Part shown: positions 131 to 59,633 of the stretch, one piece after another
Position numbering within the stretch: the stretch's first letter is position 1
How the letters are laid out: each line of letters starts with the position of its first letter
Assembly: GCA_934096735.1 (NCBI GenBank)
Contig: CAKOMS010000004.1
Location: forward strand, 1-59,633
Length of the DNA: 59,633 bases
Reading direction: 5' to 3'
DNA from: an uncultured Bacilli bacterium
GTDB lineage: Bacteria; Bacillota_I; Bacilli_A; RF39; UBA660
Notes under the pieces: model-generated
Database searches by the model: none
What the model was told of the DNA's origin: nothing
Seen by the model: only the letters and a program-made list of their open reading frames with translations
Position numbers and translations under genes: made by a program

Positions 131-161
131 TAAAAAAGAAACCTTTATTTCAAAGATTTCT
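131..161 (-). terminator. possible intrinsic terminator after dnaJ
   Basis: minus strand AGAAATC-11 nt loop-GGTTTCT (one G.U pair) followed by TTTTTAT; overlaps the dnaJ stop. Confidence 0.4.
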
Positions 162-1272: not shown

Positions 1273-1282
1273 ATTATTACTC

Positions 1283-3070: not shown

Positions 3071-3093
3071 ATATACCCTTTCATAAACATTGT

Positions 3094-3120
3094 AAGAGTT
3101 CTAGTTATCCTAGAACTCTT
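3094..3120 (-). terminator. perfect 11-bp stem-loop between dnaK and pepF (partial terminator or mRNA stabiliser)
   Basis: AAGAGTTCTAG-5 nt loop-CTAGAACTCTT; only a weak U-tract on the minus strand. Confidence 0.45.
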
Positions 3121-3140
3121 ATAATTAAAATTTTATTAAA

Positions 3141-4973
<1,833 letters not shown>

Positions 4974-5001
4974 TCATCCTTTCTTATATATAAGAGTAAT
5001 A

Positions 5002-6533: not shown

Positions 6534-6551
6534 TGATATCACCTTACTTCT

Positions 6552-6578
6552 ATAGCACTCAATTTTCTTGATTGCTAA
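6552..6578. promoter_or_regulatory. CIRCE operator copy 2 (aTAGCACTC-N9-GAtTGCTAA)
   Basis: 7/9 + 8/9 match to TTAGCACTC-N9-GAGTGCTAA with canonical 9-nt spacer, just upstream of the hrcA RBS. Confidence 0.75.
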
Positions 6579-6597
6579 TACCATTATAATATTATGT

Positions 6598-6625
6598 TTA
6601 GCACTTGTCAAGTTATGAGTGCTAA
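6598..6625. promoter_or_regulatory. CIRCE operator copy 1 (TTAGCACTt-N10-GAGTGCTAA)
   Basis: near-perfect CIRCE arms; spacer is one nt longer than canonical; a TAAAAT -10-like box lies about 11 nt upstream on the minus strand. Confidence 0.8.
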
Positions 6626-6674
6626 TTTCACAAATTTTACACAAAATAAAAAAATTAAAGATTTCTCTTCAATT

Positions 6675-7598: not shown

Positions 7599-7627
7599 AC
7601 TATCCCCCAACAATAAAATTTTACTAT

Positions 7628-7656
7628 ATTATACACTATTAACTTATCTATGTAAA
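7628..7656 (-). promoter_or_regulatory. sigma-A-type promoter TTTACA-17-TATAAT upstream of the sigma-like gene
   Basis: -35 rc of 7651..7656, -10 rc of 7628..7633, 17-nt spacer. Confidence 0.5.
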
Positions 7657-7662
7657 TATATG

Positions 7663-7688
7663 TAAAAAAGCACTATAAAAATGCTTTT
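7663..7688 (-). terminator. weak intrinsic terminator after mraY
   Basis: AAAAGCA-9 nt loop-TGCTTTT followed by extra Ts on the minus strand; AT-rich stem. Confidence 0.4.
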
Positions 7689-7695
7689 AAATTAA

Positions 7696-8688
<993 letters not shown>

Positions 8689-8776
8689 AAAATCACCTTC
8701 TCAATCTAAATTATACACTAAATACAATAACTTTTTTATTAACTAACATAATATTTGACAAATTTTTACATCATTA

Positions 8777-10690
8777 TTAATTTAACATAAGAGTAATTGT
8801 AGTCTCAACACTTTGAAAACTATTAGCTTTAGGACTCATATATATAACAGTATCTCCACTACCACTATATTTAACTTTAAAATCTTTTAAAGTCTTAGTA
8901 GCATCTTCTTTGCTCATGCCAATTACATTTGGTACTTCCATATATTTAACATCTAAATAACTATATTCTTTAATCATACCACCATCAGTCTCAGGTATTT
9001 TTAAAGTTTCAATTAAAGAAAGCATTATACTTCTAGCAATTGGAGCAGAAACAGTTCCACCATATTGTGTTACCCCTTTAGGATTATCTATAGCAACATA
9101 AACTACACCCTTAGGATTATCAGCAGGTAAAAATCCAATAAATGAAAGTATATAATTACCAACCATATATTTTCCATCACTTACCTTTTGGGCAGTACCA
9201 GTCTTACCACCAACTCTATAATTTTCTATATAAGCATTTCTTCCAGTACCATTAGATACAACACTTTCAAGAGCAAATCTAACAAGTTTACTAGTATTTT
9301 CACTTATAACTCTTCTTTTAGTAACAGTCTTTTTCTCAAGCAAAATAGATTCACTACTAGGATCAATTATTCTTTTAACTACATAAGGAGTATTTAAAAA
9401 TCCTCCATTAATTGCCGCAGAAACTGCTACTACTTGTTGAATTGGAGTAACACTTATACCTTGACCAAATGCTGTAGTAGCAGTTTCTACTGGACCCATA
9501 TTACTAGTTTTAAATAAAATACCATTACCTTCACCATTTAAATCAATTCCAGTTTTAGTTCCAAATCCAAAATCTCTTATATGTTTCATTAATTTTTCAG
9601 TTCCAAGTCTTTGACCTAACGTAACAAAACCAGGATTGCAAGAATTCTCAACGACTTCTAAATAAGTTTGAACACCATGACCACCATGTTTCCAACAATG
9701 AAGTGTTGAACCATCTACATTTATACTACCTCCATCAGTAAACTGATCTTTAAATATATCAACAACATTTTCTTCAATACTACTAGCAAGTGTAATAATT
9801 TTAAAAGTAGACCCAGGTTCATAAGTCATCCATATAGGTAAATTTCTATTAATAACTTCTTCGCTATAATCTTGATAATTATCCGGATCAAATGATGGTT
9901 TACTAGAAATACCTAAAATTTCTTCAGTAGATGGTTCCATTACAATAGCAAGAGCATGATCTGCATCATATTTTTTAGTAGCCTTATTAAGTTCATTATC
10001 AATAGATTTCATTACTTCAATATCTATTGTTAATTCTAAAGTAAGACCCTTAGTGGGAGCAACATAACTATCTGGTACTTCAAGTTTATTACCTTTTCCA
10101 TCACTATAATATTTTAATTCTCCATTATTTCCTTTTAAATAATCATCATAAGTAAGTTCTAATCCAGAAAGACCTTGATTATCACTTCCAACAAACCCAA
10201 TTATATGACTAAGCATATCTTTATAAGGATAATATCTTTTTGAATCAACTACCAAATATACTCCATCATAACCAAGTGCATCAATTTTATCTGCCACACT
10301 ACTATCTAAATCCATTCCTTTTCTTATTATTTCCATACTACTATTTTTAGATACATATTTATAAACATCATCATAATTACAATTAAGTATTTTGCTAATA
10401 TCTTCACTTACTTTTTCTTTATCTTTAATTTGATTAGGAACAACATAAACAGTAGTAGTAACTACACTTGTAGCAAGAACTACTCCATTTCTATCCACAA
10501 TATCTCCCCTTGGAGCATTAATAGTCATCTTTCTACTCCATAAATCCTCAGTTAATTTAGAAAGCTTATTATAAGAAAAAACTTGTATATAAAAAACCTT
10601 ACCAATAATTAATATTAAAGCTATAACTACTACTAAAAAAACTACTCTTATTCTAAAATGTTTATCATAAAAAAACATAGCATTCACCAA
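8777..10690 (-). CDS. spoVD: class B penicillin-binding protein with one C-terminal PASTA domain (SpoVD-like)
   Basis: N-terminal TM; SxxK (STFK), KTGT (GGKTGTAQ); single PASTA (VPNVIGMSKEDATKTL). Size and architecture match B. subtilis SpoVD; the symbol is inferred. Confidence 0.85.
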   Translation of the reverse strand: MVNAMFFYDKHFRIRVVFLVVVIALILIIGKVFYIQVFSYNKLSKLTEDLWSRKMTINAPRGDIVDRNGVVLATSVVTTTVYVVPNQIKDKEKVSEDISKILNCNYDDVYKYVSKNSSMEIIRKGMDLDSSVADKIDALGYDGVYLVVDSKRYYPYKDMLSHIIGFVGSDNQGLSGLELTYDDYLKGNNGELKYYSDGKGNKLEVPDSYVAPTKGLTLELTIDIEVMKSIDNELNKATKKYDADHALAIVMEPSTEEILGISSKPSFDPDNYQDYSEEVINRNLPIWMTYEPGSTFKIITLASSIEENVVDIFKDQFTDGGSINVDGSTLHCWKHGGHGVQTYLEVVENSCNPGFVTLGQRLGTEKLMKHIRDFGFGTKTGIDLNGEGNGILFKTSNMGPVETATTAFGQGISVTPIQQVVAVSAAINGGFLNTPYVVKRIIDPSSESILLEKKTVTKRRVISENTSKLVRFALESVVSNGTGRNAYIENYRVGGKTGTAQKVSDGKYMVGNYILSFIGFLPADNPKGVVYVAIDNPKGVTQYGGTVSAPIARSIMLSLIETLKIPETDGGMIKEYSYLDVKYMEVPNVIGMSKEDATKTLKDFKVKYSGSGDTVIYMSPKANSFQSVETTITLMLN

Positions 10691-10726
10691 TAAATACTAT
10701 GTTTTAAATCTTAAAAATATATTATC

Positions 10727-13567
10727 TTAATTTGTATAAACAAATACATTACCAACATCTGATGCAACTCTATTTGAATAATTACCAGAAATATTTATAT
10801 CTTTATTAAGTAAATTATATTCTCTTATAATATTTCCATTATCACTTGTAATATTTCCACCAAAAATACTTATAGTTATTGGTTTTTCTACATTAGTCTT
10901 ACTAGCATAATGTCCATAATATGCATCATTTACTTCAACATAAATTGCATCCCCTGTTGGATTTATCTTACCAACAGTTTTTTCTAAATTAGCATCTAAT
11001 ACTTTTTCACCAAATGCTTTAATTTCTCCACCTGCAATATTTAATACTCCTAGTTTCATACCAACAACATTAAGACCACTTACAGTTCCACCATTAATAT
11101 TTACTGTCATATAACTTGGCATATAAATAGCAGTATCTCCATCAGCAGTAACAGTAGCACCATCATAAATATTTACAGTAGGATTTTGTTTATATTGACT
11201 ATCATAATTTCCGCTTATAGCAAATCTATTTCTAGAAATTACTGTGCCATAAACATCAATATTAATATTAGAACCAAATACAGATACTCCAATACCCATT
11301 GCATCAATAGTAACATCATCACTAATTACAAGTCTAGCATTATTAAAATCTGTAAAATCATCTTCTCCATCTCTAGTAGCACCATACTGAATAAGTCCAT
11401 AAGGAGAATCATCATAATTAACAATCTTACCATTTTTAATAGTTAATGTTTTACCTTCAAAACTATAAGCAAATAACATATTACTATTCATACTAGCAGA
11501 AATAGTATGACCATTTAAATTAAGAGTAGTATCTTTTATATAGTCAAAATATATGAGTTTATTAATAGTAAAATCAGAAAGTATATTCATTTCATTTGTA
11601 CTATTATCTTTCTTTAATTCATCAACTGCATAATTAATACTATTTGCATCATACTTAATACCATTAACTTCTAAAGCAGCTCTAGAAGTATCTGAATAAA
11701 CAAAAGCATTATTTTCTCTAGCTTCTCTAGTTTCATATATTCCAGCCATTTTAATATACTCTTGAGTAGTATTATATTCTCTTATTTTATTTCCAGAAGT
11801 ACTACTAATTTCTCCACCATTAACAGTAATGTTTATTGGACTTCCATTAGTATTCTTTTTATAATGATTATAATATCCATCACTAACTTCAACATAAATA
11901 GCATCACCAGTAGGATTAATTCCACCAGATTTTTCTTTTAAATCAGCATCATTAACATATTCTCCAACACCATTTACATGTCCACTAATAATATTTAATT
12001 CACCAAGTTTCATACCAATACCAGTTTTACCACTAACAGTTCCACCATTTACATTTACTTTCATATAACTTGGCATATATATAGCAGTTTCATTTTCTGA
12101 AGTAACATTAGCACCAACTAAAATATTAATTTCAGGATTTTGCATATATTGATTATAATAATTTCCACTTATAGCAAATCCATTTTGAGATTTAATAGTA
12201 CCAAAAACATCTAAAATTAAATTAGTACCCATTACAATAACACCTTGACCAACAGCATCTACTGTTAAATTATTTGCTAAAACAAGTTTTGCATTGTTAA
12301 AATCAGTAACATCATTTTCATCACTTGTTCTAGTTGCACCAAATGCAATAATACCATAATCACTATCTGCAGTATTTTTAATAGTACCATTATATATAGA
12401 TAATGCATTACCTGTAAAACTATAAATAAACATTAAATTATTATTACTAATATTTCCAGATATAGTATGACCACCTAAATCAATAGTTATATCTCTATTA
12501 TAAGAAATATTAATTCTTTCAGTAACTTCAACATCTCTAACTAAAGTTATATAACTATTTTTAGAATTATCAATAGCATCTTGTAAACTCTTATAATAAT
12601 TTATTCCATCAGTTGCTATAACATCAGGACTCAAAACTACATCAGAATTTTGTCTTAAATCATAAGAAACCAAATCATCTACAGACCATCCAAAACTAAA
12701 AGATATATTAGTTCCTAAATATTTTGGAGTTACTTTTAGTTTTATATCTCCATCTGTTAATTTTATTTTAATAGCCTTATTTCCAATTTCATTTTCATTA
12801 AATTCAACCCATTCAGTTCCATTAAAGTAGCTATAATTCATTGCAGAAGTATCCATTAATGTAAGTTCTTTACCTTCATAACTATTTGCTTTAACACTTA
12901 TTGTAAATTCATTTTCTTCATTTAAATACATTTCTTTAGGTAAATTTAAAGTGAACTTTGGAGCAATCTTAACAATTGGTTCATCAAGTTCATATTCAAA
13001 ATTAGCATTTTGATCAACTTTTGATAAATCTACTGTTGCATTAACACCTTCACTTGTAAAATAAAATCCACCTATCCAAGTAGCAGGTACTATAATTTTT
13101 CCATTTTCATATTTTGCTTTACCACTTGCTTGATTATAGGGAGAAATGGATCCCTCATCAATAATACCATCAAATGGTATTTCTAATTCTTTTTCTTTAT
13201 TATTAACAAAGAAAATATTTAAATTCTTTTCAACTTCTAAAGCTTCACTTTCAGTAAGTGGAGTTAGTTTTCCAGAATTAAGTTCAACTCTACTCCAACT
13301 TTCAGTTAAATCACTATAATAAAGTGTATCTACTTTAGTTGTATCAATATCATGATTAAGAGCAAGTTGAATTTTAGCTTCGTTCATACCAGCAATACCT
13401 GCAGCAGCAAAAGTTATAATAGTATCATTATCAAACTTTGTTCCACCAAAAATATAAACATCACCAGTATAAGAAGAACTACTTTCTTTAATAACACTAG
13501 CATTTACGTTAATAGTCATAAAAACACTTAAAACTAATACTAATATTATTTTCTTAATACATTTCAT
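10727..13567 (-). CDS. secreted 946-aa protein with two ~280-aa internal repeats, probably beta-helix-like
   Basis: Sec signal peptide (…TINVNA/SV); no LPXTG. The repeat core LNGHTIS...YG.I..GATR...D.TDFNNA.L....TVDA.G.GV...G.N...DV.GT...N.FAISGNY..QY.QNP occurs twice. Confidence 0.85.
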   Translation of the reverse strand: MKCIKKIILVLVLSVFMTINVNASVIKESSSSYTGDVYIFGGTKFDNDTIITFAAAGIAGMNEAKIQLALNHDIDTTKVDTLYYSDLTESWSRVELNSGKLTPLTESEALEVEKNLNIFFVNNKEKELEIPFDGIIDEGSISPYNQASGKAKYENGKIIVPATWIGGFYFTSEGVNATVDLSKVDQNANFEYELDEPIVKIAPKFTLNLPKEMYLNEENEFTISVKANSYEGKELTLMDTSAMNYSYFNGTEWVEFNENEIGNKAIKIKLTDGDIKLKVTPKYLGTNISFSFGWSVDDLVSYDLRQNSDVVLSPDVIATDGINYYKSLQDAIDNSKNSYITLVRDVEVTERINISYNRDITIDLGGHTISGNISNNNLMFIYSFTGNALSIYNGTIKNTADSDYGIIAFGATRTSDENDVTDFNNAKLVLANNLTVDAVGQGVIVMGTNLILDVFGTIKSQNGFAISGNYYNQYMQNPEINILVGANVTSENETAIYMPSYMKVNVNGGTVSGKTGIGMKLGELNIISGHVNGVGEYVNDADLKEKSGGINPTGDAIYVEVSDGYYNHYKKNTNGSPINITVNGGEISSTSGNKIREYNTTQEYIKMAGIYETREARENNAFVYSDTSRAALEVNGIKYDANSINYAVDELKKDNSTNEMNILSDFTINKLIYFDYIKDTTLNLNGHTISASMNSNMLFAYSFEGKTLTIKNGKIVNYDDSPYGLIQYGATRDGEDDFTDFNNARLVISDDVTIDAMGIGVSVFGSNINIDVYGTVISRNRFAISGNYDSQYKQNPTVNIYDGATVTADGDTAIYMPSYMTVNINGGTVSGLNVVGMKLGVLNIAGGEIKAFGEKVLDANLEKTVGKINPTGDAIYVEVNDAYYGHYASKTNVEKPITISIFGGNITSDNGNIIREYNLLNKDINISGNYSNRVASDVGNVFVYTN
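10814..11662 (-). repeat. internal coding repeat B (aa 636-918) of the 946-aa protein
   Basis: aligns by eye along its whole length with aa 321-599; both copies end ...GN.IREYN. Confidence 0.85.
11771..12607 (-). repeat. internal coding repeat A (aa 321-599) of the 946-aa protein
   Basis: see repeat B. Confidence 0.85.
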
Positions 13568-13585
13568 TTTTTAACCCTTTCTATA

Positions 13586-14590
13586 TTATTTTTCTAACCT
13601 AGCATTTCCAATACTTTTAATTTGGTTTTTGTTTGTAACATAACCATCCTTAGAAATCTTCTTAGTAATTACTTGACCACTAGTAGTTGTAATATCTAAA
13701 TAACCATCAACCTTTTCACCGTTCTTAGTTACATATAAAGTAGTTTGACCAACAATAGATGTTGCAATATCTTCTTTTAAATAGCTTATTACATCATTAT
13801 TCTTTGGTTCCTCAGGTTTAGTTGGTTCATCTGGAGCAACTACTGGAGTTTCAACCTTTTCCCATTTAGCTACTAAAGTAATATTTTTTACAACTTTTGA
13901 ATTAAAATTATATACTTTACCATCTAAATACCAACCCACAAACTTATAACCATCTCTAGTTGGATCTTTTGGTTTACTAACAGTTTTACCAGAAGTAACA
14001 CTAACATTTGAAATTTTACTTCCACCTTGTGTATCAAATTTAACTGTATATTTTGTAACTGTATTACTATTATTAGTTGTATTCTTTTCCCATTTTGCAG
14101 TAACAGTTTCATCACTAGTTATAGCACTTCCAACAGTAACTTCTTCATTATTCTTATTAAACCAACCTACAAACTTATAACCATCCTTAACAGGTGTAGG
14201 TAATTCTTTAATAACACCATTTTCTACAAGAATATCATTAACTGTACTACCACCATTTGAATCAAACTTCATAGTATAACTCTTTACAACTGTATTTCCA
14301 TCTTCTTTACTACTCCATTTAGCAACTAAAGTAATATCTTCTAGAACTGCCAAATCAAAATCATATAAAGTATCATTTAAATACCAACCAGAAAATACGT
14401 AACCATCTCTTGTAGGTTCACTTGGCTTACTTACTTTATCACCTTTTTTAACTTGAACACTACTTACAACAGATCCACCATTTGAATCAAATGTTACAGT
14501 ATATTTTTGCCCTTTTACAAAAAACACAGCACCAAGTATAGCAATAACTACTAATATTCCAATAATTACAAACGCACTTGACTTTTTCAT
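13586..14590 (-). CDS. membrane-anchored protein with three Listeria-Bacteroides (InlB B-type / Flg_new) repeats
   Basis: N-terminal TM; 3 x [Y.V.FD..GGS.....V..G..VSKP..PTRDGY.F.GWY........F......ITLVAKW]. Confidence 0.85.
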   Translation of the reverse strand: MKKSSAFVIIGILVVIAILGAVFFVKGQKYTVTFDSNGGSVVSSVQVKKGDKVSKPSEPTRDGYVFSGWYLNDTLYDFDLAVLEDITLVAKWSSKEDGNTVVKSYTMKFDSNGGSTVNDILVENGVIKELPTPVKDGYKFVGWFNKNNEEVTVGSAITSDETVTAKWEKNTTNNSNTVTKYTVKFDTQGGSKISNVSVTSGKTVSKPKDPTRDGYKFVGWYLDGKVYNFNSKVVKNITLVAKWEKVETPVVAPDEPTKPEEPKNNDVISYLKEDIATSIVGQTTLYVTKNGEKVDGYLDITTTSGQVITKKISKDGYVTNKNQIKSIGNARLEK

Positions 14591-14699
14591 ATTTCATCCT
14601 TTCTACTAATTTTAACAAAACATTCCAAGCTCTCTGCTATCATATTTTATTAATTAAAATATAACATTAAATTAAAAAAAAGACAACAAAAATTGCCTT

Positions 14700-16826
14700 T
14701 TAAGAAGACGAAAAAGTAATAGTTATTTCATCATCTTTATTAATAGTTGTACCTGGAGATATACTTTGATTAGTTAAAACCCCATAACCTTCATAATAAG
14801 CCTTTAAACCAAGTAAATTCATATATGTTTTAACTTCACTAACACTCCAACCACTCATATCTTCTAATACATAATTAGCACTATTAGATACTAAAAAAAC
14901 TTTTCCTCCAACTTGAACTTTACCATTTTTATTTGGATACTGATTAATAATATAATTACCATCTCCAATAACAAAAACTTTTAAACCTTTATCTCTAAGT
15001 TCACTTGTCACACTATTTATATCTTTACTAATATAATTATCTAAAGTTACAACTTTTTTCACAATATTATCTTCTCTATTTTCATATCCTAAATAAGCTG
15101 CAATATCATCAACAGTTTTAGCAAGCACCTTAGCAATATTACTAGCACCAGTATTAATCTTTTGTGTAGCAATATAAACTATATATTCTGGATTTTCTTC
15201 AGGAAATATACCAGCAAAACTTCTAACATAATCATTTGCACCTTTCAAATAACCTCCAGTCGGAGAAGCTATTTGTGCAGTACCAGTCTTACCAATCATA
15301 GTAGTTCTACTTGGTCTCCAATATTGTCCACTACTAAGTCCTTCATAAACCATATTATGCATAAGTCCTCTCATATAATCTACAGTTTCTTTACTATATA
15401 CTTTATTAATTTCAGTTCTCTTACCCTTATAAATAATTTTACCATCATCATCAACAATTTTATCAACTATATAAGGCTTTAAAGTAACTCCCCCATTAGT
15501 TAAAGAAGAAAGTGCTTGTAACATTTGAATAGGAGTAACAGTAATACCTTGTCCAAAAGAAGCAGTAGCAAGTTCACTCTTATATTCAATATTTACTTTA
15601 CCATCAACCTCATTAGCAAGTTCAACTCCGGTTTTACTAGCAAACCCAAGTTTACGATAATAATCTCCCAATATACCAGTTCCTTTTTCTTTTTCAAGAT
15701 TAAGTGCTAAATTAACAGCAGCAACATTTGAAGAATAAGCAAAACCTGTATCATAAGAAATAAGTCCCCATCCAGTTTTATTCCAATCCTTAATTTTAGT
15801 TTCACTATCTATTTCAATACTACCAGATTTATAAGTACTGCTTCCATCATATAAACCTTCTTCAATACTAGTAGCAAAAGAAAATATTTTCATTGTACTA
15901 CCAGGTTCATATTCATAACTAACTAAAGGATTATTATAATTTTTTAAAGTATTTAAATCATTTGGGTTAAAATTAGGATAAGTACTACTAGCTACAATAG
16001 CACCAGTTTTAGCATCCATTACAGCAAATATCATCCAATCCATTTCATATTCACTAGATAACTCTCTCGTAAGAGACTCAGCAAATCTTTGTATATTACT
16101 ATCAATAGTTAAATATATATTATCTCCATTTTTTTCTTTCTCAATTAAAACATCACTTGAAGGAAGAGTATAACCATAAGCATCAGTTTCATATGTTTTA
16201 CTACCATTAGTACCACTAAGTTGCTTATTATAATAACTCTCTATTCCAAGTTCTCCAACAATTTCACTATTATCATCATTACCATTTTTCTTAGCATATC
16301 CAATAATATAAGAAGCAAAACTACCCATACTATAAGTTCTCTTTTGACTAGCAATAAAATCTATTCCAGGCATTTCTAAAGCAGCAATTTTATTTTTTAA
16401 ATTTTCATCAATCCCTTTACCCTTAGATCCAAATTCAACTTGATATTTATTTTTATTTAATTGTTTCATTGCATCTTCATAACTAATACCTAAATATTCA
16501 TTTAACATCTTAGCAGTACTTTCTTTATCTACAACATGCTGTGGTTTATTTTTATTAGTAGTTCTATTACTATCTAAATATGCAATTATTTTATATGAAT
16601 TTACTACACTAGCAAGTACATTATCATCTTTATCATATATATTACCTCTCTTAGCATATATAATTTCTTTCTTAGTATTTCTATTACTTGCAAATTCACT
16701 TAAATTAATTCCATCAACTTTTGGACTTAATGCTACATAACTAAGTTTAATTATAATCATAAGAAAAAGAAAAGCCACAATAAAAATAATTGGTTTTTGA
16801 ATTTTTATAGTTGCCTTTCTTTTCAT
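14700..16826 (-). CDS. pbpB: class B penicillin-binding protein with two PASTA domains (PBP2B/FtsI-like)
   Basis: N-terminal TM; STMK (SxxK), SSN, KTGTAQ; two C-terminal PASTA repeats; sits directly after ftsL. Confidence 0.9.
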   Translation of the reverse strand: MKRKATIKIQKPIIFIVAFLFLMIIIKLSYVALSPKVDGINLSEFASNRNTKKEIIYAKRGNIYDKDDNVLASVVNSYKIIAYLDSNRTTNKNKPQHVVDKESTAKMLNEYLGISYEDAMKQLNKNKYQVEFGSKGKGIDENLKNKIAALEMPGIDFIASQKRTYSMGSFASYIIGYAKKNGNDDNSEIVGELGIESYYNKQLSGTNGSKTYETDAYGYTLPSSDVLIEKEKNGDNIYLTIDSNIQRFAESLTRELSSEYEMDWMIFAVMDAKTGAIVASSTYPNFNPNDLNTLKNYNNPLVSYEYEPGSTMKIFSFATSIEEGLYDGSSTYKSGSIEIDSETKIKDWNKTGWGLISYDTGFAYSSNVAAVNLALNLEKEKGTGILGDYYRKLGFASKTGVELANEVDGKVNIEYKSELATASFGQGITVTPIQMLQALSSLTNGGVTLKPYIVDKIVDDDGKIIYKGKRTEINKVYSKETVDYMRGLMHNMVYEGLSSGQYWRPSRTTMIGKTGTAQIASPTGGYLKGANDYVRSFAGIFPEENPEYIVYIATQKINTGASNIAKVLAKTVDDIAAYLGYENREDNIVKKVVTLDNYISKDINSVTSELRDKGLKVFVIGDGNYIINQYPNKNGKVQVGGKVFLVSNSANYVLEDMSGWSVSEVKTYMNLLGLKAYYEGYGVLTNQSISPGTTINKDDEITITFSSS

Positions 16827-54239: not shown

Positions 54240-54749
54240 ATGATAAATGTTGTATTATTTGAACCAGAAATACCTACAAATACTGGTAATATCATGAGAA
54301 CTTGTATTGCTACCAATACAAAATTACACTTAATTAAACCACTTGGATTCTCATTAGATAGTAAGTATGTAAAAAGAAGCGGAGTTAACTATATAGATAA
54401 ATGTAATTATGAAGTCTATGAAAATATTGATGACTTCTTCAGTAAAAATAAGGGTGAATATTATTTTTTAACAAGATATGGACATAAACCTCACACTACC
54501 TTTGATTACAGTGATAAAGAAAAAAATATTTATTTCTTCTTTGGAAAAGAATCAACTGGAATACCACCAAAAATATTAAAACCATATATAGATAGATGTG
54601 CAAGAATTCCAATGACTAGTAATGTTCGTGCCCTTAATCTATCAAATACTGTTGCAATAGTAGTTTATGAAGCATTAAGACAACAAAATTATCCAAATCT
54701 TTTATTTGATGAACCACACAAATCAAAAACTTTTATAGAAGAAAATTAA
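54240..54749 (+). CDS. trmL: tRNA (cytidine/uridine34-2'-O)-methyltransferase, SpoU/TrmL family
   Basis: EPEIP.NTGNI.RTC, FGKES.G.P, R.PM....R.LNLSN.VAI..YEA. Confidence 0.88.
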   Translation: MINVVLFEPEIPTNTGNIMRTCIATNTKLHLIKPLGFSLDSKYVKRSGVNYIDKCNYEVYENIDDFFSKNKGEYYFLTRYGHKPHTTFDYSDKEKNIYFFFGKESTGIPPKILKPYIDRCARIPMTSNVRALNLSNTVAIVVYEALRQQNYPNLLFDEPHKSKTFIEEN

Positions 54750-54771
54750 AACGGCATAAGCCGCTTTTTTT
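54750..54771. terminator. short GC-clamped hairpin between convergent trmL and the dacA fragment
   Basis: CGGC-ATAA-GCCG followed by CT7 on the plus strand. Confidence 0.45.
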
Positions 54772-54772
54772 A

Positions 54773-55324
54773 TTAATCATTTATTAATTCTTTACCAGAT
54801 AAAAGTATTTTTAAGTTTCTTTTAAAATAATCCCATAAATTTGCTTTTTTAATACTTTCTTCAACTGTAATTCCAACCTCTTTTATTTTTTTCCCTTCAT
54901 TATCAATAACTTCTGCTACTCCAACCTTTTCTCCTTTTTTTACTGGAGCCTTAACTTTTTTAACTTTTAAATTAATAGTATATTCTTTTTTACTATCATT
55001 AACATTTAATAATTCTTCTGCATCTTCCATAAGTATTAAATTAACTTTTTCTACTTTTCCTCTTTCAACTCTAACTGTATCTATAACTTTTCCTTTTTTA
55101 TAAATAACATCTAACTTATAAGAATTAAAACCATAATTTAACATCTTTACTGTATCAATTGTTCTATTATCGGGTGTATCAACACCCATAACTACACTTA
55201 TAAGACGCATATCATTCTTTTTAGCGGTAGCAGTAAGACAATATCCAGCACTACCTGTAAAACCAGTTTTAAGTCCATCTACATCTTCGTAAAACCTTAC
55301 AAGTTTATTAGTATGTGAATAAAG
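54773..55324 (-). pseudogene. 5'-truncated D-alanyl-D-alanine carboxypeptidase (DacA/PBP5-type) gene
   Basis: frame open to a TAG at 55325..55327. It translates ...HTNKLVRFYEDVDGLKTGFTGSAGYCLTATAKKNDMRLISVVMG plus the PBP5 C-terminal beta domain. The KTG box is present, but the SxxK and SxN boxes and the signal peptide are absent. Confidence 0.8.
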
Positions 55325-55432: not shown

Positions 55433-56446
55433 TTACTTAAATATTTCTAAATAATTACCAATATCATAATTATCTAAATTAATTGCTTTTATTCTACATT
55501 TCAACATTTTTTCGCCAATATCTTTAACTTCTATTTTATATTTAATACCTTTATCTATTTTAAAAGCATAATAACAAGCATAATCACTAGAAATATATCC
55601 TATATGATTATTATCTTTATCTAATACTTTTATAGCATTATTATCAAAAGTATTATCTAACTCTCTAACAACATATAATTCATCATCAATATTTAATCTA
55701 TCCACATATTTTTTTCTATCTTTAATATTTATCCCAACTACATTAATATAACCTACTAAAGTATTTGAAGAATTTTCCCAACTTGGAATCAAATAACTAT
55801 ATTTTTTTTCTAATAAATAATAAATATCATTATCAATAACTACTATCTTTTCATTAGGATATAATTCTTTAAAACGTTTCATATTTTGTAAACTTCTATA
55901 ATCTAAATTACCTTTAACTTCAATTAAAGTTCCATCACTTAAAACAAAATCCGGAACATAAGAAAAAGACATATACTTATAATCACATTCATTTTTATCC
56001 AAAATAAATTTTTTACTCTCATATTTATAATCTATTTTTAAATAATTAAATATACGAATAACATTAGCTTCCCACGAAGACATAACATCTTTTTTAATAT
56101 CTACTCTATTACCTTTTTTAAAATTAGTTTCAGTTTTATTATTAACTATATCTTTTCTATTAATAACTTCATAATAATCACATTTCGGATAATTAGCACA
56201 AACAATAATGTCTCCAAACTTTATATTATTTATTAATAATTTTTTTCCACACTTTGGACAATTCTTATTTTCATAAACTACAGGTTTATTTTTACTAGTA
56301 TACTTACAATTTAAACATTGATATAATTTAAAACCCAATTTATTTCTAATAACTTTCATATTTCCATTACATCTTGGACAAAAAACATCATTTGTTTTTT
56401 TATCTTCATCATCTACATGCACTACTTGAATATCATTATATCTCAT
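55433..56446 (-). CDS. fusion protein: two Zn-ribbons (topoisomerase-type C4) + PD-(D/E)xK nuclease-like core + C-terminal HIRAN domain
   Basis: CPRCNG...CLNCKY and CPKCGKKL...CANYPKCDY; SWEANV...YVPDFVLSDGTLIEVKG; HIRAN-like VVGINIKDRKKYVDRLNIDDELYVVRELDNTFDNNAIKVLDKDNNHIGYISSDYA. Confidence 0.8.
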   Translation of the reverse strand: MRYNDIQVVHVDDEDKKTNDVFCPRCNGNMKVIRNKLGFKLYQCLNCKYTSKNKPVVYENKNCPKCGKKLLINNIKFGDIIVCANYPKCDYYEVINRKDIVNNKTETNFKKGNRVDIKKDVMSSWEANVIRIFNYLKIDYKYESKKFILDKNECDYKYMSFSYVPDFVLSDGTLIEVKGNLDYRSLQNMKRFKELYPNEKIVVIDNDIYYLLEKKYSYLIPSWENSSNTLVGYINVVGINIKDRKKYVDRLNIDDELYVVRELDNTFDNNAIKVLDKDNNHIGYISSDYACYYAFKIDKGIKYKIEVKDIGEKMLKCRIKAINLDNYDIGNYLEIFK

Positions 56447-56468: not shown

Positions 56469-57056
56469 CTATTTATAAAATCTTAATACTTGATATTGAT
56501 AAGTATCATTATTATCTAAATATCCTACAGAAATACCTTTACCATTATTAGAAGTTTTACCAGATGTAGATTTTTCTTTAGCTTCTTTTATTAATTCATC
56601 AATTTCTTCATCAGTAATACTACTATTATTAGCTTTAATTAAATACTTAGTATAGTCAATTACATTTTTTTCATACTCACTATTTTTTTGAACAAAAATA
56701 AGCATATAATCCACTATTTCAGTTTCTTTATTACCAGTAAATTTTTTAGGAACAACTACTAAAGAAACACCTTCATATAAACCATACCAATATTGATTAT
56801 TACTTACAGTTAAATAATCTAATGAAGCTTTATTTAACGAAGTATTATTCAATACTTCAGTATTAAACTTAGCAACTAAAACATCAACAGTTTCTTCCTG
56901 AACAAAACCATATTTATTTTGTGATTCTTCCAAATCATTTTTAGTATCATTTAAATTAGACTTACCACATCCAGTTATTCCAAATACCATAACTCCACAC
57001 ATTAAAATAATAAATATTAATTTTTTCACAATCATCTTCTCCATTCTTAAAAACAA
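56469..57056 (-). CDS. lipoprotein of unknown function
   Basis: lipobox FGITG/C after a hydrophobic h-region; the start is probably an internal Met (MIVKK...). Confidence 0.7.
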   Translation of the reverse strand: MFLRMEKMIVKKLIFIILMCGVMVFGITGCGKSNLNDTKNDLEESQNKYGFVQEETVDVLVAKFNTEVLNNTSLNKASLDYLTVSNNQYWYGLYEGVSLVVVPKKFTGNKETEIVDYMLIFVQKNSEYEKNVIDYTKYLIKANNSSITDEEIDELIKEAKEKSTSGKTSNNGKGISVGYLDNNDTYQYQVLRFYK

Positions 57057-57126
57057 ATTATTTTAATAAATTATATCATAAAAATTTTCAAATAATAATT
57101 ATACTATATATCACAGTGACATATTT

Positions 57127-58059
57127 TTAAAATAAAGTTATTTGTTCTTCCGTAACCTTATAACTTTTTTGAACTGCTTCCACTATTTTATCATCACTTT
57201 CTACTTCTCCAATAAGTAAAGGAGATGCTGAATTATGCCTTTTTATATTTTCTAAAACATTCTTTTTATTTGTATTAGCATAACAATATCTACATAAATG
57301 TCCACAAGAATCATATGCACCAATATCATTTCCCAATAAACAACTACACCCTTCTCTTGAACCTTTAATTTTTGGATAATTTAACTTATATCCAATACTT
57401 TTTTCTACAAGACTTTTACTTCTACATCCTGAAATATTTACACCATATTCTTTTAAATAATCTTTTTCACAACAAGAATAAATTTGAATACCATATTCTT
57501 TTCCAATATTAACAAATTCTTTAACTATTATTATTTGTTCTTCTTTATTAGGAGGTCTTAAATCTGGAGCATTTATCTTAACTTTCTCATACAAATCTAA
57601 AAAACTAATTACAACATAATTTGTATAACCTTTTAATTTACTTGCAATATATTTAAAAGCATTAATATGTTCATATATACCAAAATCTTTATTAAAAAAT
57701 ATTGGATCATATCTCCATCCAACACAGTTAATTCCAAGTTTTAAAGATAACTTTTGAAAACTTTTTATAACTTCATCTTTATCTGGAACATTTAGCTCAA
57801 TGTCTTTTCCATATGGAGTAATTGTTACAAACCAAAATTGTTTATAAATATTAATTTCATCTAAATATTTAAGCATTGGTTCTGGATTTTTAGTGCAAAA
57901 CTCTAGTGAATCAACAACACTAGGATCAAGAATATATTTCATTATTAACTTTGGATAATATGGATTTCTAACATAAACGTAACCTTCTTTTATTCTAGTT
58001 ATTAACCATTTTGAATAAAAAGCTGGTATATCTGTTCTACACCCAGTATTAATTATCAT
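57127..58059 (-). CDS. DUF1848 family protein (start re-called to ATG 58059)
   Basis: MIINTGCRTDIPAFYSKW...VRNPYYP N-terminus and C-terminal Cys cluster GCSCLLGNDIGAYDSCGHLCRYCYAN, typical of DUF1848. Confidence 0.8.
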   Translation of the reverse strand: MIINTGCRTDIPAFYSKWLITRIKEGYVYVRNPYYPKLIMKYILDPSVVDSLEFCTKNPEPMLKYLDEINIYKQFWFVTITPYGKDIELNVPDKDEVIKSFQKLSLKLGINCVGWRYDPIFFNKDFGIYEHINAFKYIASKLKGYTNYVVISFLDLYEKVKINAPDLRPPNKEEQIIIVKEFVNIGKEYGIQIYSCCEKDYLKEYGVNISGCRSKSLVEKSIGYKLNYPKIKGSREGCSCLLGNDIGAYDSCGHLCRYCYANTNKKNVLENIKRHNSASPLLIGEVESDDKIVEAVQKSYKVTEEQITLF

Positions 58060-58600
58060 AACTATCCTTATACATAAAACATTCTTTATCATGAGAATAT
58101 ATAAAACCAATAGCTTGTAAATAAGAGTAGATTATAGTATCTCCTACAAACTTCATACCTCTTTTCATTAAATCTTTAGATATAAGAGAAGAAATTTCAT
58201 TAGTAGTTTTATTAACTTCATAAATAATTTTATCTTTAGTAAATAATTTTAAATAATTATAAAAACTTCCATATTCCATTTGAATACTTTTAAATATTCT
58301 TGCATTATTAATACTTGCTACTATTTTTAATCTATTTCTTATTATCTTATCATTTAAAAGTAATTCATTTATTTTTTTATCATCATAATTAATAACTTTA
58401 TCTATATCAAAATTATCATAAGCCTCTTTAAAATATTTTCTTTTATTTAAAACACATTCCCAAGATAATCCAGCTTGAAATGATTCTAATATTAACATTT
58501 CAAACAAATAATCATCTTGATAATTCAAAACACACCATTCATTATCATGGTAATCTACATATAAAGGATTATTTAAATTACACCATGCACATCTTTTCAT
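58049..58600 (-). CDS. tag: DNA-3-methyladenine glycosylase I (start re-called to ATG 58600)
   Basis: RCAWC......Y..YHDNEW.V...DD..LFE.L.LE.FQAGLSW...L.KR..F; IIRNRLKI. Confidence 0.88.
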   Translation of the reverse strand: MKRCAWCNLNNPLYVDYHDNEWCVLNYQDDYLFEMLILESFQAGLSWECVLNKRKYFKEAYDNFDIDKVINYDDKKINELLLNDKIIRNRLKIVASINNARIFKSIQMEYGSFYNYLKLFTKDKIIYEVNKTTNEISSLISKDLMKRGMKFVGDTIIYSYLQAIGFIYSHDKECFMYKDSYDN

Positions 58601-58601
58601 A

Positions 58602-58787
58602 CTAACCATCCATTCTTGACATAAAAAATTCATTCATATTATTTTTTTCAAGTTTTAAAAGTTCTATTTTATTATTTATTCCTCCACCATAACCAGTTAA
58701 ATTTCCATTTGAACCAACAACTCTATGACAAGGAATAATAATACATATTGGATTAAAGCCAACTGCACCACCAACAGTTTGACTCAT
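58602..58787 (-). pseudogene. C-terminal remnant of methylated-DNA-protein-cysteine methyltransferase (Ogt/Ada-type)
   Basis: VGGAVGFNPICIIIPCHRVVGSNGNLTGYGGGINNKIELLKLE contains the PCHRV active site. The preceding HTH/recognition helix and N-domain are missing, and an in-frame TGA lies 13 codons upstream. Confidence 0.7.
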
Positions 58788-58901
58788 CCAATTATATTCA
58801 AATAATTTAATGAACCAATTACATCATGTAATAAATAAAATATAACACTTAAAACACCACTTAAACATAACTAATTTCTTATTTTTTTCATATTAACCAT
58901 T

Positions 58902-59069
58902 TTATTTTCTTAAATATACAAAATCTAATATAGCATAAAATATAGTATATAATATTGATGCAACTATAACCATTTTTAAATCAATATTTTTAGTAAATAA
59001 ATAATCAACTACAGTATAAATTACACCAAAAATAATCATATTTATTAAATATTTTATCCAAATTTTCAT
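58902..59069 (-). CDS. possible 55-aa two-helix membrane peptide (below the ORF-track cutoff)
   Basis: hand translation MKIWIKYLINMIIFGVIYTVVDYLFTKNIDLKMVIVASILYTIFYAILDFVYLRK; GAGGTG RBS 5 nt upstream. Confidence 0.35.
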   Translation of the reverse strand: MKIWIKYLINMIIFGVIYTVVDYLFTKNIDLKMVIVASILYTIFYAILDFVYLRK

Positions 59070-59097
59070 ATTTCACCTCATAAAATTCACAAGCATA

Positions 59098-59430
59098 TTA
59101 TAACATAATTTTATTAAATATTTCTTTATTATTATTATTTATCTTATTATTATATTCCTTCATATAAGTAATCCCTTCTTCCTTATTTACTACTTCATTA
59201 TTACTTATCCCTCCCCAAACATTACTCATTAGAGTAGTACTTCTTTGCTTAACTAGATTTTCATTTCTAATGTGTTTAACATTTATTAACCCCCAATCTT
59301 TTAGTTTTCTCATCGTAACAAATATTGCCCTTGACTTAACTCCAAATAAATTAGCAAAATAAGCAATACTAGTAAAACATATATATCTATATGAATTTCT
59401 TCTTTCTAATTTATTTTTATTATATATCAT
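59098..59430 (-). CDS. small putative winged-helix/HTH DNA-binding protein
   Basis: IAYFANLFGVKSRAIFVTMRKLKDWGLINV reads as helix-turn-helix plus wing; N-rich tail; no family assigned. Confidence 0.45.
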   Translation of the reverse strand: MIYNKNKLERRNSYRYICFTSIAYFANLFGVKSRAIFVTMRKLKDWGLINVKHIRNENLVKQRSTTLMSNVWGGISNNEVVNKEEGITYMKEYNNKINNNNKEIFNKIML

Positions 59431-59492
59431 CTTATTTTTTTAATTTAGTTTCACATTTTTCATATAACAAAAAAACAATATAAATTATTACA

Positions 59493-59633
59493 CTATTTAA
59501 TATAATTATTTTTTAAATTTGAATCTAATAGTAAAGCAACTATTTCTGATGCCCTAGATTTTTTTACATTAAATATTTCAGCAACATCTTCCCATTTAAA
59601 ATCATATTGATAACCAAACTTATCAAACAATTT
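59493..59633 (-). CDS. 3' end of a CDS entering from beyond the window; HTH-like C-terminus
   Basis: hand translation ...KLFDKFGYQYDFKWEDVAEIFNVKKSRASEIVALLLDSNLKNNYIK*; stop at 59493..59495. Confidence 0.4.
   Translation of the reverse strand, partial: KLFDKFGYQYDFKWEDVAEIFNVKKSRASEIVALLLDSNLKNNYIK

What the first reader, a model, noticed from the sequence alone, without database searches (positions are those of the whole stretch)
55433..56446. Unusual Zn-ribbon x2 / PD-(D/E)xK / HIRAN fusion protein
The 337-aa protein has three parts. First, two C4 zinc ribbons, the second with the topoisomerase-type C.NYPKC signature. Second, a core with the restriction-endonuclease-fold signature (S.E...// Y.PDF......G..IEVKG, also seen in DUF1064/TnsA-N-like nucleases). 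Third, a textbook HIRAN domain (VVG......Y.....L...DEL.VVRE.DN.FD.NAI.V......HIGY.....A). In eukaryotic HLTF the HIRAN domain binds 3'-OH DNA ends at stalled forks. A nuclease-HIRAN fusion in an accessory segment next to alkylation-repair genes could be a damage- or end-sensing nuclease, or a standalone anti-phage effector. I do not know of a characterised protein with this architecture.
Basis: partly seen in the sequence, partly recalled or inferred. Interest (0 to 1): 0.65.

Follow-up and report, generated by a model that had tools for sequence, protein, structure and literature searches.

The report
Mobile-element nuclease fused to HIRAN
This gene encodes an uncharacterised enzyme that joins a phage-type branched-DNA cutter to a module known to grip free 3' DNA ends; it rides on mobile DNA inserted into a cell-wall gene and is a good but untested candidate for a weapon against competing phages or plasmids.

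Summary
ORF 55433-56446 (minus strand, 337 aa) has two C4 zinc ribbons of the topoisomerase I type, a PD-(D/E)xK nuclease core and a C-terminal HIRAN domain.

The nuclease belongs to the T7 endonuclease I family. A family profile matches T7 endo I at E = 1e-14, and the tetrad E126/D166/E176/K178 is kept in at least 113 of 116 relatives. It is not best described as DUF1064/TnsA-like.

In HIRAN, the aspartate that binds the 3'-OH in human HLTF (D94, here D268) is kept in 111 of 116 relatives.

The nuclease-HIRAN core defines an unnamed family of more than 130 clusters, joined to at least 27 unrelated N-terminal regions. The zinc-ribbon form is a minority.

The gene is strictly accessory: absent from 36 other species of the genus and from 398 other sampled genomes of the class. 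It is the last gene of a serine-recombinase element inserted in a D-Ala-D-Ala carboxypeptidase (dac) gene. Elsewhere, homologues sit on integrative elements or beside GmrSD, type IIG restriction, OLD-like ATPase, retron and SIR2 genes.

Best reading: a mobile-element-borne endonuclease guided to branched DNA by free 3' ends, probably used in conflict with phages or plasmids (about 0.5). Function is untested. It is a new variant of a known kind.

The parts
55433..56446 (-). Complete CDS, 337 aa: two zinc ribbons, a T7-endonuclease-I-like nuclease and HIRAN
   Evidence: ORF listing. Domain hits. AlphaFold2 model with pLDDT 87.3 and pTM 0.80.
56297..56386 (-). Zinc ribbon 1 (residues 21-50; C23, C26, C44, C47)
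   Evidence: Sequence. Sub-threshold Pfam hits to Lar_restr_allev (24.6 bits against a cut-off of 28.6) and Zn_ribbon_IS1595, and a hit to Zn_ribbon_TFIIB just at its cut-off (22.2 against 22). All-beta ribbon in the model.
56156..56266 (-). Zinc ribbon 2, topoisomerase I type (residues 61-97; C63, C66, C83, C89; ANYPKC motif)
   Evidence: Pfam Zn_ribbon_Top1, 37.7 bits, above its cut-off. Foldseek hit to full-length E. coli topoisomerase I with ssDNA (4rul), E = 5e-3. The family profile cross-hits the TopA genes of all relatives.
55751..56113 (-). T7 endonuclease I-like PD-(D/E)xK nuclease domain (residues 112-232; catalytic E126, D166, E176, K178)
   Evidence: Family profile against PDB 1m0d, E = 1e-14. 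Phage_endo_I matched in 91 of 106 relatives. The tetrad is conserved in 113-115 of 116 members. BFVD 'Endonuclease I' at E = 1.7e-8. PHROG Holliday-junction resolvase at 8e-9.
55484..55750 (-). HIRAN domain (residues 233-321; D268 equivalent to HLTF D94, F267 equivalent to Y93, N265)
   Evidence: Pfam HIRAN above its cut-off. Foldseek 3k2y TM 0.82; HLTF HIRAN E = 2e-6. Profile against HLTF, E = 1.6e-12. Residue conservation. Roles of the HLTF residues from PMC5773155.
55304..55322 (-). attR junction of the integrative element. The core ATACTAATAAA is repeated at attL (contig C20:13340-13350). The element-side half-site is TTATTCACATAC.
   Evidence: Junction comparison with the intact dac of a congener and with the G005 and L013 elements.
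54773..55318 (-). Third piece (C-terminal about 180 aa, PBP5_C) of the interrupted dac (Peptidase_S11) gene, followed by the only terminator-like hairpin in the region at 54748-54767
   Evidence: Pfam PBP5_C. tblastn mapping of the dac pieces. dac is intact at 385-400 aa in congeners. Terminator scan.
56469..59633 (-). Rest of the element on this contig: lipoprotein (56469-57056), DUF1848 (57127-58110), tag (58049-58633), ogt remnant (58602-58787), a 55-aa membrane peptide, a 110-aa HTH ORF weakly like replication initiators (59098-59430), and an ORF that runs off the contig end
   Evidence: The element continues, across an unassembled gap, to a large serine recombinase at C20:13642 to the contig end.

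Best explanation
The gene encodes a single-chain, structure-specific DNA endonuclease carried as cargo by mobile DNA.

Shown:
- The catalytic domain is a T7 endonuclease I homologue with an intact E-D-E-K metal-binding site.
- The C-terminal domain is a HIRAN fold that keeps the aspartate and aromatic residue which, in human HLTF, hold the free 3'-OH and the terminal bases.
- The N-terminus is a pair of topoisomerase-I-type zinc ribbons.
- In this genome the gene is the last gene of an integrative element with a large serine recombinase, inserted site-specifically into the dac gene.

Inferred mechanism:
- The zinc ribbons bind single-stranded DNA.
- HIRAN captures a free 3' end.
- Together they place the endonuclease I domain, probably acting as a dimer as in T7, on a nearby branch point: a fork, a D-loop, a 3' flap, or a rolling-circle or recombination-dependent replication intermediate. 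The domain then cleaves there.

Inferred role: such intermediates are abundant when phages or plasmids replicate. The gene also travels with mobile elements and defence genes. The most likely biological role is therefore inter-element conflict, meaning anti-phage or anti-plasmid interference by the host island or satellite.
For: Domains and residues; HLTF residue roles from PMC5773155.

Accessory distribution:
- 0 of 36 other species of the genus and 0 of 60 relatives carry the gene.
- Only G000 among 399 sampled genomes of the class has the full core.

Mobile-element location:
- dac is split into three pieces.
- A serine recombinase follows piece 2 and the gene lies just before piece 3.
- The att core is repeated at both junctions.
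- Congeners have an empty site.

Swappable cargo: a related element in G005 carries a Schlafen-AlbA_2/HATPase_c_4/HTH protein in the same position.

Homologue contexts:
- Serine-recombinase, tyrosine-integrase or Mob_Pre elements.
- smpB-integrase-GmrSD-nuclease-HIRAN.
- Type IIG/ISP restriction-modification enzyme plus a RecD-like helicase.
- OLD/AriA/GajA-like ATPase.
- Retron RT_VI in the same element.
- SIR2 directly downstream.
- The end of a prophage, next to its integrase.

Family design: a conserved effector core joined to at least 27 unrelated N-terminal regions. That pattern is typical of conflict proteins (my own knowledge).
Against: - There is no functional test of any family member.
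- No PADLOC model covers the protein beyond its HIRAN domain.
- In the L013-type elements the gene is a constant backbone gene beside the repressor, while the slot between the recombinases varies. That fits an element-maintenance role equally well.
- In this genome it lies 22 nt downstream of a lipoprotein gene, in a run with DUF1848 and tag, which hints at repair.
- Neighbourhood evidence rests on about a dozen distinct contexts and was not tested against a null.
- It is unclear how a free-standing junction nuclease would spare host forks.
- Within the species, the 7 differences from a 98% relative are 6 non-synonymous and 1 synonymous. This is too few to interpret, but it is not a sign of strong constraint.
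- One relative (L027) is broken.
Confidence: 0.5

Rival explanations
1. Element-maintenance enzyme. The nuclease resolves or trims the mobile element's own branched replication or recombination intermediates after induction, much as T7 endonuclease I clears branches before packaging. It helps the element replicate, excise or be packaged, rather than attacking competitors.
For: - The nuclease domain is of a phage type, annotated as Holliday-junction resolvase or endonuclease I in phages.
- In L013, L014, L015, L024 and L125 the gene is a constant backbone gene next to an HTH_3 repressor. In L016 and L007 it sits with an AAA_25 primase/helicase-like ATPase.
- Free-standing HIRAN proteins occur in phages, for example phage G gp253.
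Against: - The gene also occurs alone, with no replication or recombination genes, between repeats of the dac 3' end (L022/L023).
- It occurs in islands with only restriction or defence neighbours.
- No complete fusion was found in 50,697 phage records or 72,556 plasmid records.
- The N-terminal region is hypervariable, which is not expected for a housekeeping resolvase.
Confidence: 0.25
2. Host DNA-repair factor. A stalled-fork or damage-processing nuclease works together with the adjacent alkylation-repair genes (tag, DUF1848, ogt), with HIRAN finding the nascent 3' end at a blocked fork as in HLTF.
For: - The gene has the same orientation as lipoprotein-DUF1848-tag with short gaps, and the only terminator-like site lies beyond dac piece 3.
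- The same arrangement is kept in two other samples of this species.
- The eukaryotic HIRAN precedent (PMC5773155).
Against: - The gene is absent from all 36 other species of the genus and from the class sample.
- No other homologue is linked to tag, ogt or DUF1848.
- The whole block lies inside an insertion in dac, and ogt there is a 61-aa remnant.
Confidence: 0.12
3. Selfish or addictive nuclease. The protein acts as a toxin that stabilises the element, or as a homing-type endonuclease that spreads its own gene into dac.
For: - The single-gene insertion is flanked by a 236-nt repeat of the dac 3' end in L023.
- Small, non-conserved ORFs follow the gene in several loci.
Against: - The same scar pattern at the same site carries an unrelated Schlafen-AlbA_2 gene in G001 and G006. 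The mobility therefore does not come from the nuclease.
- The small downstream ORFs show no obvious similarity between loci (by eye; no formal comparison was run), and none is present in this window.
- T7 endo I-type enzymes are structure-specific, not sequence-specific (established knowledge).
Confidence: 0.08

Closest known systems
Bacteriophage T7 endonuclease I (gp3; Pfam PF05367 Phage_endo_I; PDB 1m0d, 2pfj)
   Same: The catalytic domain is homologous: family profile E = 1e-14, with FRSSWEAN/FRSGLEDK, YxPDF/YTPDF and EVKG/ETKG in register. The E-D-E-K tetrad is the same. It is expected to cleave branched DNA in a metal-dependent way.
   Different: T7 endo I is a free-standing protein of 149 aa. 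This protein adds two N-terminal zinc ribbons and a C-terminal HIRAN domain. It also has family-specific invariant residues (D205, D207, W223, E224) that T7 lacks. Whether it forms the domain-swapped dimer is unknown. Its own Pfam score is below the cut-off.
HIRAN domain of human HLTF (PDB 4s0n, 4xzf)
   Same: Same fold (Foldseek E = 2e-6; profile E = 1.6e-12). The residues equivalent to HLTF D94 (binds the 3'-OH) and Y93 are conserved: D268 and F267.
   Different: HLTF couples HIRAN to a SNF2 translocase and a RING ligase to reverse forks. Here HIRAN is coupled to a nuclease. The loop holding HLTF R71/Y72/Y73 is four residues longer here, so the Y72 equivalent is uncertain. Prokaryotic HIRAN domains are described as uncharacterised (PMC11090510).
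PADLOC candidate system PDC-M03 (HipA-like kinase plus HIRAN protein)
   Same: The HIRAN part matches component PDC-M03B (E = 3e-11; 101 of 106 relatives). Both are predicted, untested, island-borne HIRAN proteins (PMC11706625).
   Different: The match covers only residues about 234-314. PDC-M03B proteins have no endonuclease I domain. No HipA partner is present among the window's neighbours.
Satellite- or island-encoded anti-phage nucleases that act on replication intermediates or DNA ends (for example PLE NixI and Shedu SduA; named from my own knowledge, not tested here)
   Same: The concept is the same: a nuclease carried by an integrative element or defence island that recognises a feature of replicating foreign DNA rather than a sequence.
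   Different: There is no sequence or fold relationship. The proposed trigger here, a free 3'-OH next to a branch read by HIRAN, has not been described for those systems.
E. coli topoisomerase I C-terminal zinc ribbons (PDB 4rul)
   Same: Zinc ribbon 2 matches Zn_ribbon_Top1 above its cut-off. The model aligns to the ssDNA-bound TopA C-terminal region at E = 5e-3.
   Different: There are only two ribbons and no topoisomerase core. Ribbon 1 lacks the NYPxC signature in this protein.

Membership tests
T7 endonuclease I family (PF05367) | Significant profile match to the family | tested here: met
   The single sequence scores below Pfam's cut-off (19 bits against 29.1). However, 91 of 106 relatives match (best 4.8e-15), and the family profile hits T7 endo I at E = 1e-14.
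T7 endonuclease I family (PF05367) | Catalytic Glu, Asp, Glu, Lys (T7 E20, D55, E65, K67) | tested here: met
   E126, D166, E176 and K178 align with the T7 residues. They are present in 115, 115, 113 and 114 of 116 members.
T7 endonuclease I family (PF05367) | Domain-swapped homodimer with composite active sites | not testable with these tools
   Only a monomer could be modelled. The weak Foldseek match to the PDB chains (E = 0.2-0.5) fits a swapped-versus-unswapped comparison but proves nothing.
T7 endonuclease I family (PF05367) | Metal-dependent cleavage of four-way junctions and branched DNA | not testable with these tools
   This needs a biochemical assay.
HIRAN domain (PF08797) | Profile match above the curated cut-off, and the HIRAN beta-barrel fold | tested here: met
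   37.4 bits against a cut-off of 24.7. Foldseek 3k2y TM 0.82, rmsd 1.4 A; HLTF E = 2e-6.
HIRAN domain (PF08797) | 3'-OH pocket residues (HLTF D94, Y93, Y72) | tested here: inconclusive
   D268 (equivalent to D94) and F267 (equivalent to Y93) are conserved in 111 and 108 of 116 members. The Y72 equivalent lies in a longer loop and varies (position 247: T, V, Y, F). Actual 3'-end binding was not testable.
Topoisomerase-type zinc ribbon (PF01396) | Profile match above the cut-off with four Cys ligands | tested here: met
   37.7 bits against a cut-off of 32, covering residues 62-97. C63, C66, C83 and C89 are present.
PADLOC PDC-M03 (HipA + HIRAN) | HIRAN component encoded next to a HipA-family kinase | tested here: not met
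   Only the HIRAN part matches PDC-M03B. None of the ten neighbouring ORFs is a HipA kinase.
Validated anti-phage defence system | Protection against phage on expression | not testable with these tools
   Only context evidence is available.
Large-serine-recombinase integrative element | Recombinase gene, repeated att core at both junctions, and an empty site in relatives | tested here: met
   - A serine recombinase at C20:13642 to the contig end is 58% identical to the L013 recombinase and 69% to the G005 one.
- The core ATACTAATAAA is at both junctions.
- dac is intact in nearly all of the 36 congeners; G005 is split at the same site as G000 and two other open frames are short.
- Caveat: the middle of the element falls in an assembly gap.

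The most novel reading that the evidence does not exclude
The nuclease-HIRAN core is the effector of a widespread, unrecognised family of single-gene immune proteins. HIRAN reads the free 3'-OH of a nascent or invading strand at a branched phage or plasmid replication intermediate. It licenses the endonuclease I domain to cut there. The hypervariable N-terminal regions (here, ssDNA-binding zinc ribbons) tune which intermediates are attacked. This would give prokaryotic HIRAN domains their first function and would define a new way of telling foreign from self DNA, by 3'-end-plus-branch geometry.
Probability: 0.35. Interest if true: 0.72.

Novelty: new variant of a known kind. Interest (0 to 1): 0.55.

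Why it matters
Prokaryotic HIRAN domains have no assigned function (PMC11090510). Here HIRAN is hard-wired to a well-understood junction-cleaving nuclease, which gives a directly testable hypothesis for what it recognises.

If the protein cuts branched DNA only next to a free 3' end, three things follow:
- It would be a new type of structure-specific nuclease, potentially useful as a reagent.
- It would be a likely new single-gene defence or interference family carried by small integrative elements of gut Bacilli and other bacteria.
- It would be a bacterial counterpart to the fork-recognition logic of HLTF and PriA.

The dac insertion hot spot, with its exchangeable cargo, is also a compact natural system for finding further accessory or defence genes in reduced-genome gut bacteria.

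Tried and rejected
It is not supported as the closest family. All profile and structure evidence points to Phage_endo_I, with Bax1/DUF790 as a distant second.
- Whole-model Foldseek against the PDB for the nuclease domain. T7 endo I appeared only at E = 0.2-0.5, probably because the crystal chains are domain-swapped. This was resolved through the profile search and through BFVD monomer models.
- The search for related loci with the 106-member alignment failed, because no stretch was conserved enough. The close-family alignment gave only 7 genome loci.
- The search for homologous proteins with the family profile was saturated by its candidate cap and added only P0084, P0134 and P0171.
- Pfam scan of 116 members exceeded the residue limit and was repeated with 106.
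- Joining contigs C20 and C4: they share no overlap, and the missing recombinase C-terminus is not elsewhere in the assembly. Continuity of the element is therefore inferred from the dac pieces and from the G005 and L013 analogues.
- Homing-endonuclease idea. I rejected it because an unrelated gene occupies the same scar in G001 and G006.
- Conserved partner or antitoxin. None was found. The small downstream ORFs show no obvious similarity between loci (by eye only; no formal comparison was run).
- Promoter scan. It gave fewer hits than the shuffled controls and was uninformative.
Expression and habitat could not be checked from reads.
- Within-species dN/dS. There were only 7 differences, too few to interpret.
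Full report
**1. The observation**

Every quoted motif is present:
- Two C4 zinc ribbons: C23/C26/C44/C47 and C63/C66/C83/C89, the second with ANYPKC.
- The nuclease motifs SSWEAN and YVPDFVLSDGTLIEVKG.
- The HIRAN signature VVG...RELDNTFDNNAIKV...HIGY.

Pfam places Zn_ribbon_Top1 (37.7 bits, cut-off 32) and HIRAN (37.4 bits, cut-off 24.7) above their curated thresholds. An AlphaFold2 model built on 23 relatives is confident: pLDDT 87.3, pTM 0.80, with only the linker 101-111 disordered. Foldseek finds the HIRAN proteins lp_0118 (TM 0.82, rmsd 1.4 A) and HLTF (E = 2e-6), and the zinc-ribbon region of E. coli topoisomerase I bound to ssDNA (E = 5e-3).

**2. What the nuclease is**

With the single sequence, the middle domain gives only weak hits:

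| Search | Result |
|---|---|
| Pfam Phage_endo_I | E = 1e-3 |
| PDB 3cae | E = 0.0085 |
| PHROG Holliday-junction resolvase | E = 8e-9 |

An exhaustive HMMER search of 1.84 billion cluster representatives found 68 proteins at E <= 1e-30. It found more than 130 that cover both the nuclease and HIRAN parts.

A profile of 116 of them hits T7 endonuclease I (1m0d) at E = 1e-14. FRSSWEAN aligns to FRSGLEDK, YxPDF to YTPDF and EVKG to ETKG, which are the T7 residues E20, D55, E65 and K67. The same profile hits HLTF HIRAN at E = 1.6e-12.

Phage_endo_I is matched by 91 of 106 members and HIRAN by 105 of 106. E126, D166, E176 and K178 are kept in 115, 115, 113 and 114 of 116 members.

Predicted viral structures agree. 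An uncultured siphovirus 'Endonuclease I' matches at E = 1.7e-8, rmsd 2.8 A and 37% identity. Bacillus phage G encodes the two modules as separate proteins, gp28 (nuclease) and gp253 (HIRAN).

So the nuclease is a T7 endonuclease I-type junction-resolving domain, not primarily DUF1064/TnsA-like.

**3. The HIRAN pocket**

In HLTF, D94 recognises the 3'-OH of the primer strand, and Y72 and Y93 pinch the last two bases (PMC5773155). In the pairwise alignment, D268 aligns with D94 and F267 with Y93.

Across the family, D268 is kept in 111 of 116 members, position 267 is Y or F in 108 of 116, and N265 is kept in 114 of 116. The loop that carries HLTF R71/Y72/Y73 is four residues longer here, so the Y72 equivalent is uncertain.

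The family also has invariant residues with no counterpart in T7 endo I: D205, D207, W223 and E224. They lie between the nuclease core and HIRAN, and their role is unexplained.

**4. A family with a constant core and variable heads**

Only 3 of 106 cluster representatives carry Zn_ribbon_Top1. Most have a Cys-poor N-terminal region of 200-260 aa with no Pfam match. By all-against-all BLAST, the N-terminal regions of 132 members fall into at least 27 unlinked groups.

No NCBIfam model names the family. PADLOC sees it only through HIRAN similarity to component B of the candidate HipA-HIRAN system PDC-M03 (PMC11706625).

I found no paper describing an endonuclease I-HIRAN fusion. A 2024 eLife paper calls prokaryotic HIRAN domains uncharacterised (PMC11090510). 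From memory only, the 2006 paper that defined HIRAN mentions fusions to restriction-fold nucleases in eukaryotes; I could not read it here.

**5. Where the gene sits in this genome**

The window is a whole contig (C4) of a 0.91-Mb, about 87% complete, roughly 25% GC assembly.

Directly downstream of the gene lies only the C-terminal about 180 aa of a Peptidase_S11/PBP5 (dac) gene. The rest of dac is on contig C20, and it too is split:
- Piece 1 is C20:7363 to about 7728.
- A 5.3-kb insert follows. It carries a nucleoside 2-deoxyribosyltransferase, a membrane protein, an AAA_28/dNK-like protein, a PHP phosphoesterase and a 563-aa serine recombinase (domain calls).
- Piece 2 is C20:13087-13362.
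- A second serine recombinase then runs off the contig end.

The second insert therefore starts on C20 and, across an unassembled gap, ends on C4. In order it holds: a replication-initiator-like HTH ORF (weak), an ogt remnant, tag, DUF1848, a lipoprotein and finally the nuclease-HIRAN gene.

The junctions share the core ATACTAATAAA (C20:13340-13350 and window 55304-55314). The element-side half-site TTATTCACATAC is conserved in related elements of G005 and L013.

dac is an intact frame of 385-400 aa in nearly all of the 36 other species of the genus. G005 is split at the same site as G000, and two other open frames are short.

The same arrangement (DUF1848, lipoprotein, nuclease-HIRAN, dac C-piece, trmL) is seen in two other public samples with a 98% identical protein.

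**6. Distribution**

The gene is absent from all 36 other species of the genus and from 60 relatives in all. Their only hits are the zinc ribbons of their topoisomerase I genes. In an even sample of 399 genomes of the class, only this genome has the full nuclease-HIRAN core.

Close relatives (44-68% identity) occur in seven uncultured gut Bacilli MAGs from humans, goats and sheep.

No full-length match exists in 50,697 phage records or 72,556 plasmid records; only the nuclease domain alone matches there. In IMG/VR, two contigs carry both domains. One is at the integrase-proximal end of a prophage, beyond the lysis genes. The other has a DDE-transposase fragment just downstream of the gene and a tyrosine-recombinase-like ORF about 5 kb further on.

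**7. Contexts of homologues**

| Locus | Context |
|---|---|
| L013, L014, L015, L024, L125 | About 9-kb element with two serine recombinases, inserted at the same dac site. The gene sits beside an HTH_3 repressor. The slot between the recombinases varies: a 231-aa protein, a retron RT_VI, or an 800-aa SMC-like protein. |
| L016 | HTH_3, the gene, a 315-aa protein, an AAA_25 primase/helicase-like ATPase, a serine recombinase |
| L007 | Tyrosine integrase, excisionase-like HTH_17, AAA_25, the gene |
| L010-L012 | Mob_Pre relaxase, serine recombinase |
| L104 | smpB, integrase, GmrSD-type enzyme (PADLOC HEC-06/Orf5, E = 4e-46), the gene |
| L018 | The gene, a 94-aa ORF, a 1596-aa type IIG/ISP restriction-modification enzyme, a RecD-like helicase |
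| L026 | KilA-N protein, the gene, a 76-aa ORF, an OLD/AriA/GajA-like ATPase |
| L003-L006 | A 408-aa unknown protein, the gene, SIR2 |
| L022, L023, L027 | Intact dac, then the gene alone. In L023 and L027 a decayed dac 3' fragment follows: a 236-nt repeat at 89% identity flanking a 1.35-kb insert, aligned at the DNA level in L023. No second fragment was detected in L022. |

In G005 the same kind of element carries a Schlafen-AlbA_2/HATPase_c_4/HTH protein in place of the nuclease-HIRAN block. In G001 and G006 that protein sits in the same 'intact dac, cargo, dac fragment' scar.

**8. Interpretation**

The biochemical class is well supported: a metal-dependent, structure-specific endonuclease of the T7 endo I type, fused to a 3'-end-binding module and to ssDNA-binding zinc ribbons.

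The mechanism is inferred. HIRAN and the ribbons dock the enzyme on a branch that has a free 3' end and single-stranded DNA, and the nuclease cuts there.

The biological role is inferred from context. The gene is strictly accessory. It moves between unrelated mobile elements. It occupies a slot that other accessory genes can fill. It repeatedly neighbours restriction or defence genes. Its family couples a constant effector to many different heads. Together these favour a role in conflict with phages or plasmids, at about 0.5.

The main rival is a role in the element's own replication or packaging, at about 0.25. It is kept alive by the gene's constant position next to the repressor in the L013-type elements. 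A host repair role is unlikely, at about 0.12, because the link to tag and DUF1848 is unique to this species' element. A homing or addiction role is unlikely, at about 0.08, because an unrelated gene uses the same insertion scar.

**9. Novelty and verdict**

All three domains are known, and so is the functional class (a nuclease carried on mobile or defence islands). The endonuclease I-HIRAN combination, its breadth, its variable heads and its mobile-element lifestyle are, as far as I could establish, undescribed and untested. I rate it a new variant of a known kind, with interest 0.55.

Limits:
- No experiment was possible.
- Neighbourhood evidence comes from about a dozen contexts without a formal null.
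- The element's middle lies in an assembly gap.

Noticed in passing
G000 contig C20 (locus L021) 7363-14840, and window 54773-55318: The dac (Peptidase_S11) gene of this genome is interrupted twice, each time by an element with a large serine recombinase. This recalls the excisable 'intervening elements' in sporulation genes of other Firmicutes. Whether these two inserts excise is unknown.
   Followed up: partly
L021 7865-13094: The first dac insert (5.3 kb) carries a nucleoside 2-deoxyribosyltransferase, a 416-aa membrane protein, an AAA_28/dNK-like kinase, a PHP phosphoesterase and a 563-aa serine recombinase. This nucleotide-handling cargo set has an unknown purpose.
   Followed up: partly
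L119 (G006) 4077-7336; L120 (G001) 3948-6924; L023 7476-9283: A recurrent scar: an intact dac, then one cargo gene, then a duplicated and decaying dac 3' fragment. The cargo is Schlafen-AlbA_2 in G001 and G006, and nuclease-HIRAN in L023. I could not work out how this configuration arises from the recombinase-bearing form.
   Followed up: partly
L121 (G005) 151-3728: A minimal element at the same dac site: a serine recombinase (69% identical to the G000 one) plus a single 460-aa SLFN_AlbA_2/HATPase_c_4/HTH protein.
   Followed up: partly
L014 7200-8468; L125 5147-7549: The slot between the two serine recombinases of the L013-type element holds a retron-type reverse transcriptase (PADLOC RT_VI, E = 1e-53) in one sample and an 800-aa SMC_N-like protein in another.
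   Followed up: partly
L027 8001-9025: In one Hadza-gut Bacilli MAG, the nuclease-HIRAN gene is split into 204-aa and 127-aa frames. It is either a pseudogene or an assembly error.
   Followed up: no
window 58602-58787 and 58049-58633: Only the C-terminal 61 aa of an O6-methylguanine methyltransferase (with the PCHRV motif) remain, directly upstream of an intact tag gene. The listed tag frame and the listed DUF1848 frame overlap.
   Followed up: no
L003 6772-11267: In another lineage, the gene sits in a tight same-strand run: a 408-aa protein with no Pfam match, nuclease-HIRAN, a 243-aa SIR2 protein and a 487-aa protein. This may be a multi-gene system. SIR2 had no PADLOC hit.
   Followed up: partly
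residues 205-224 of the protein (window 55775-55834): D205, D207, W223 and E224 are nearly invariant across 116 family members but have no counterpart in T7 endonuclease I. They could form an interdomain interface or a second functional site.
   Followed up: no
window 55433-56446 against L123 and L124: The 98% identical allele from two other samples differs at 7 nucleotides, 6 of them non-synonymous. This is too few to test.
   Followed up: partly
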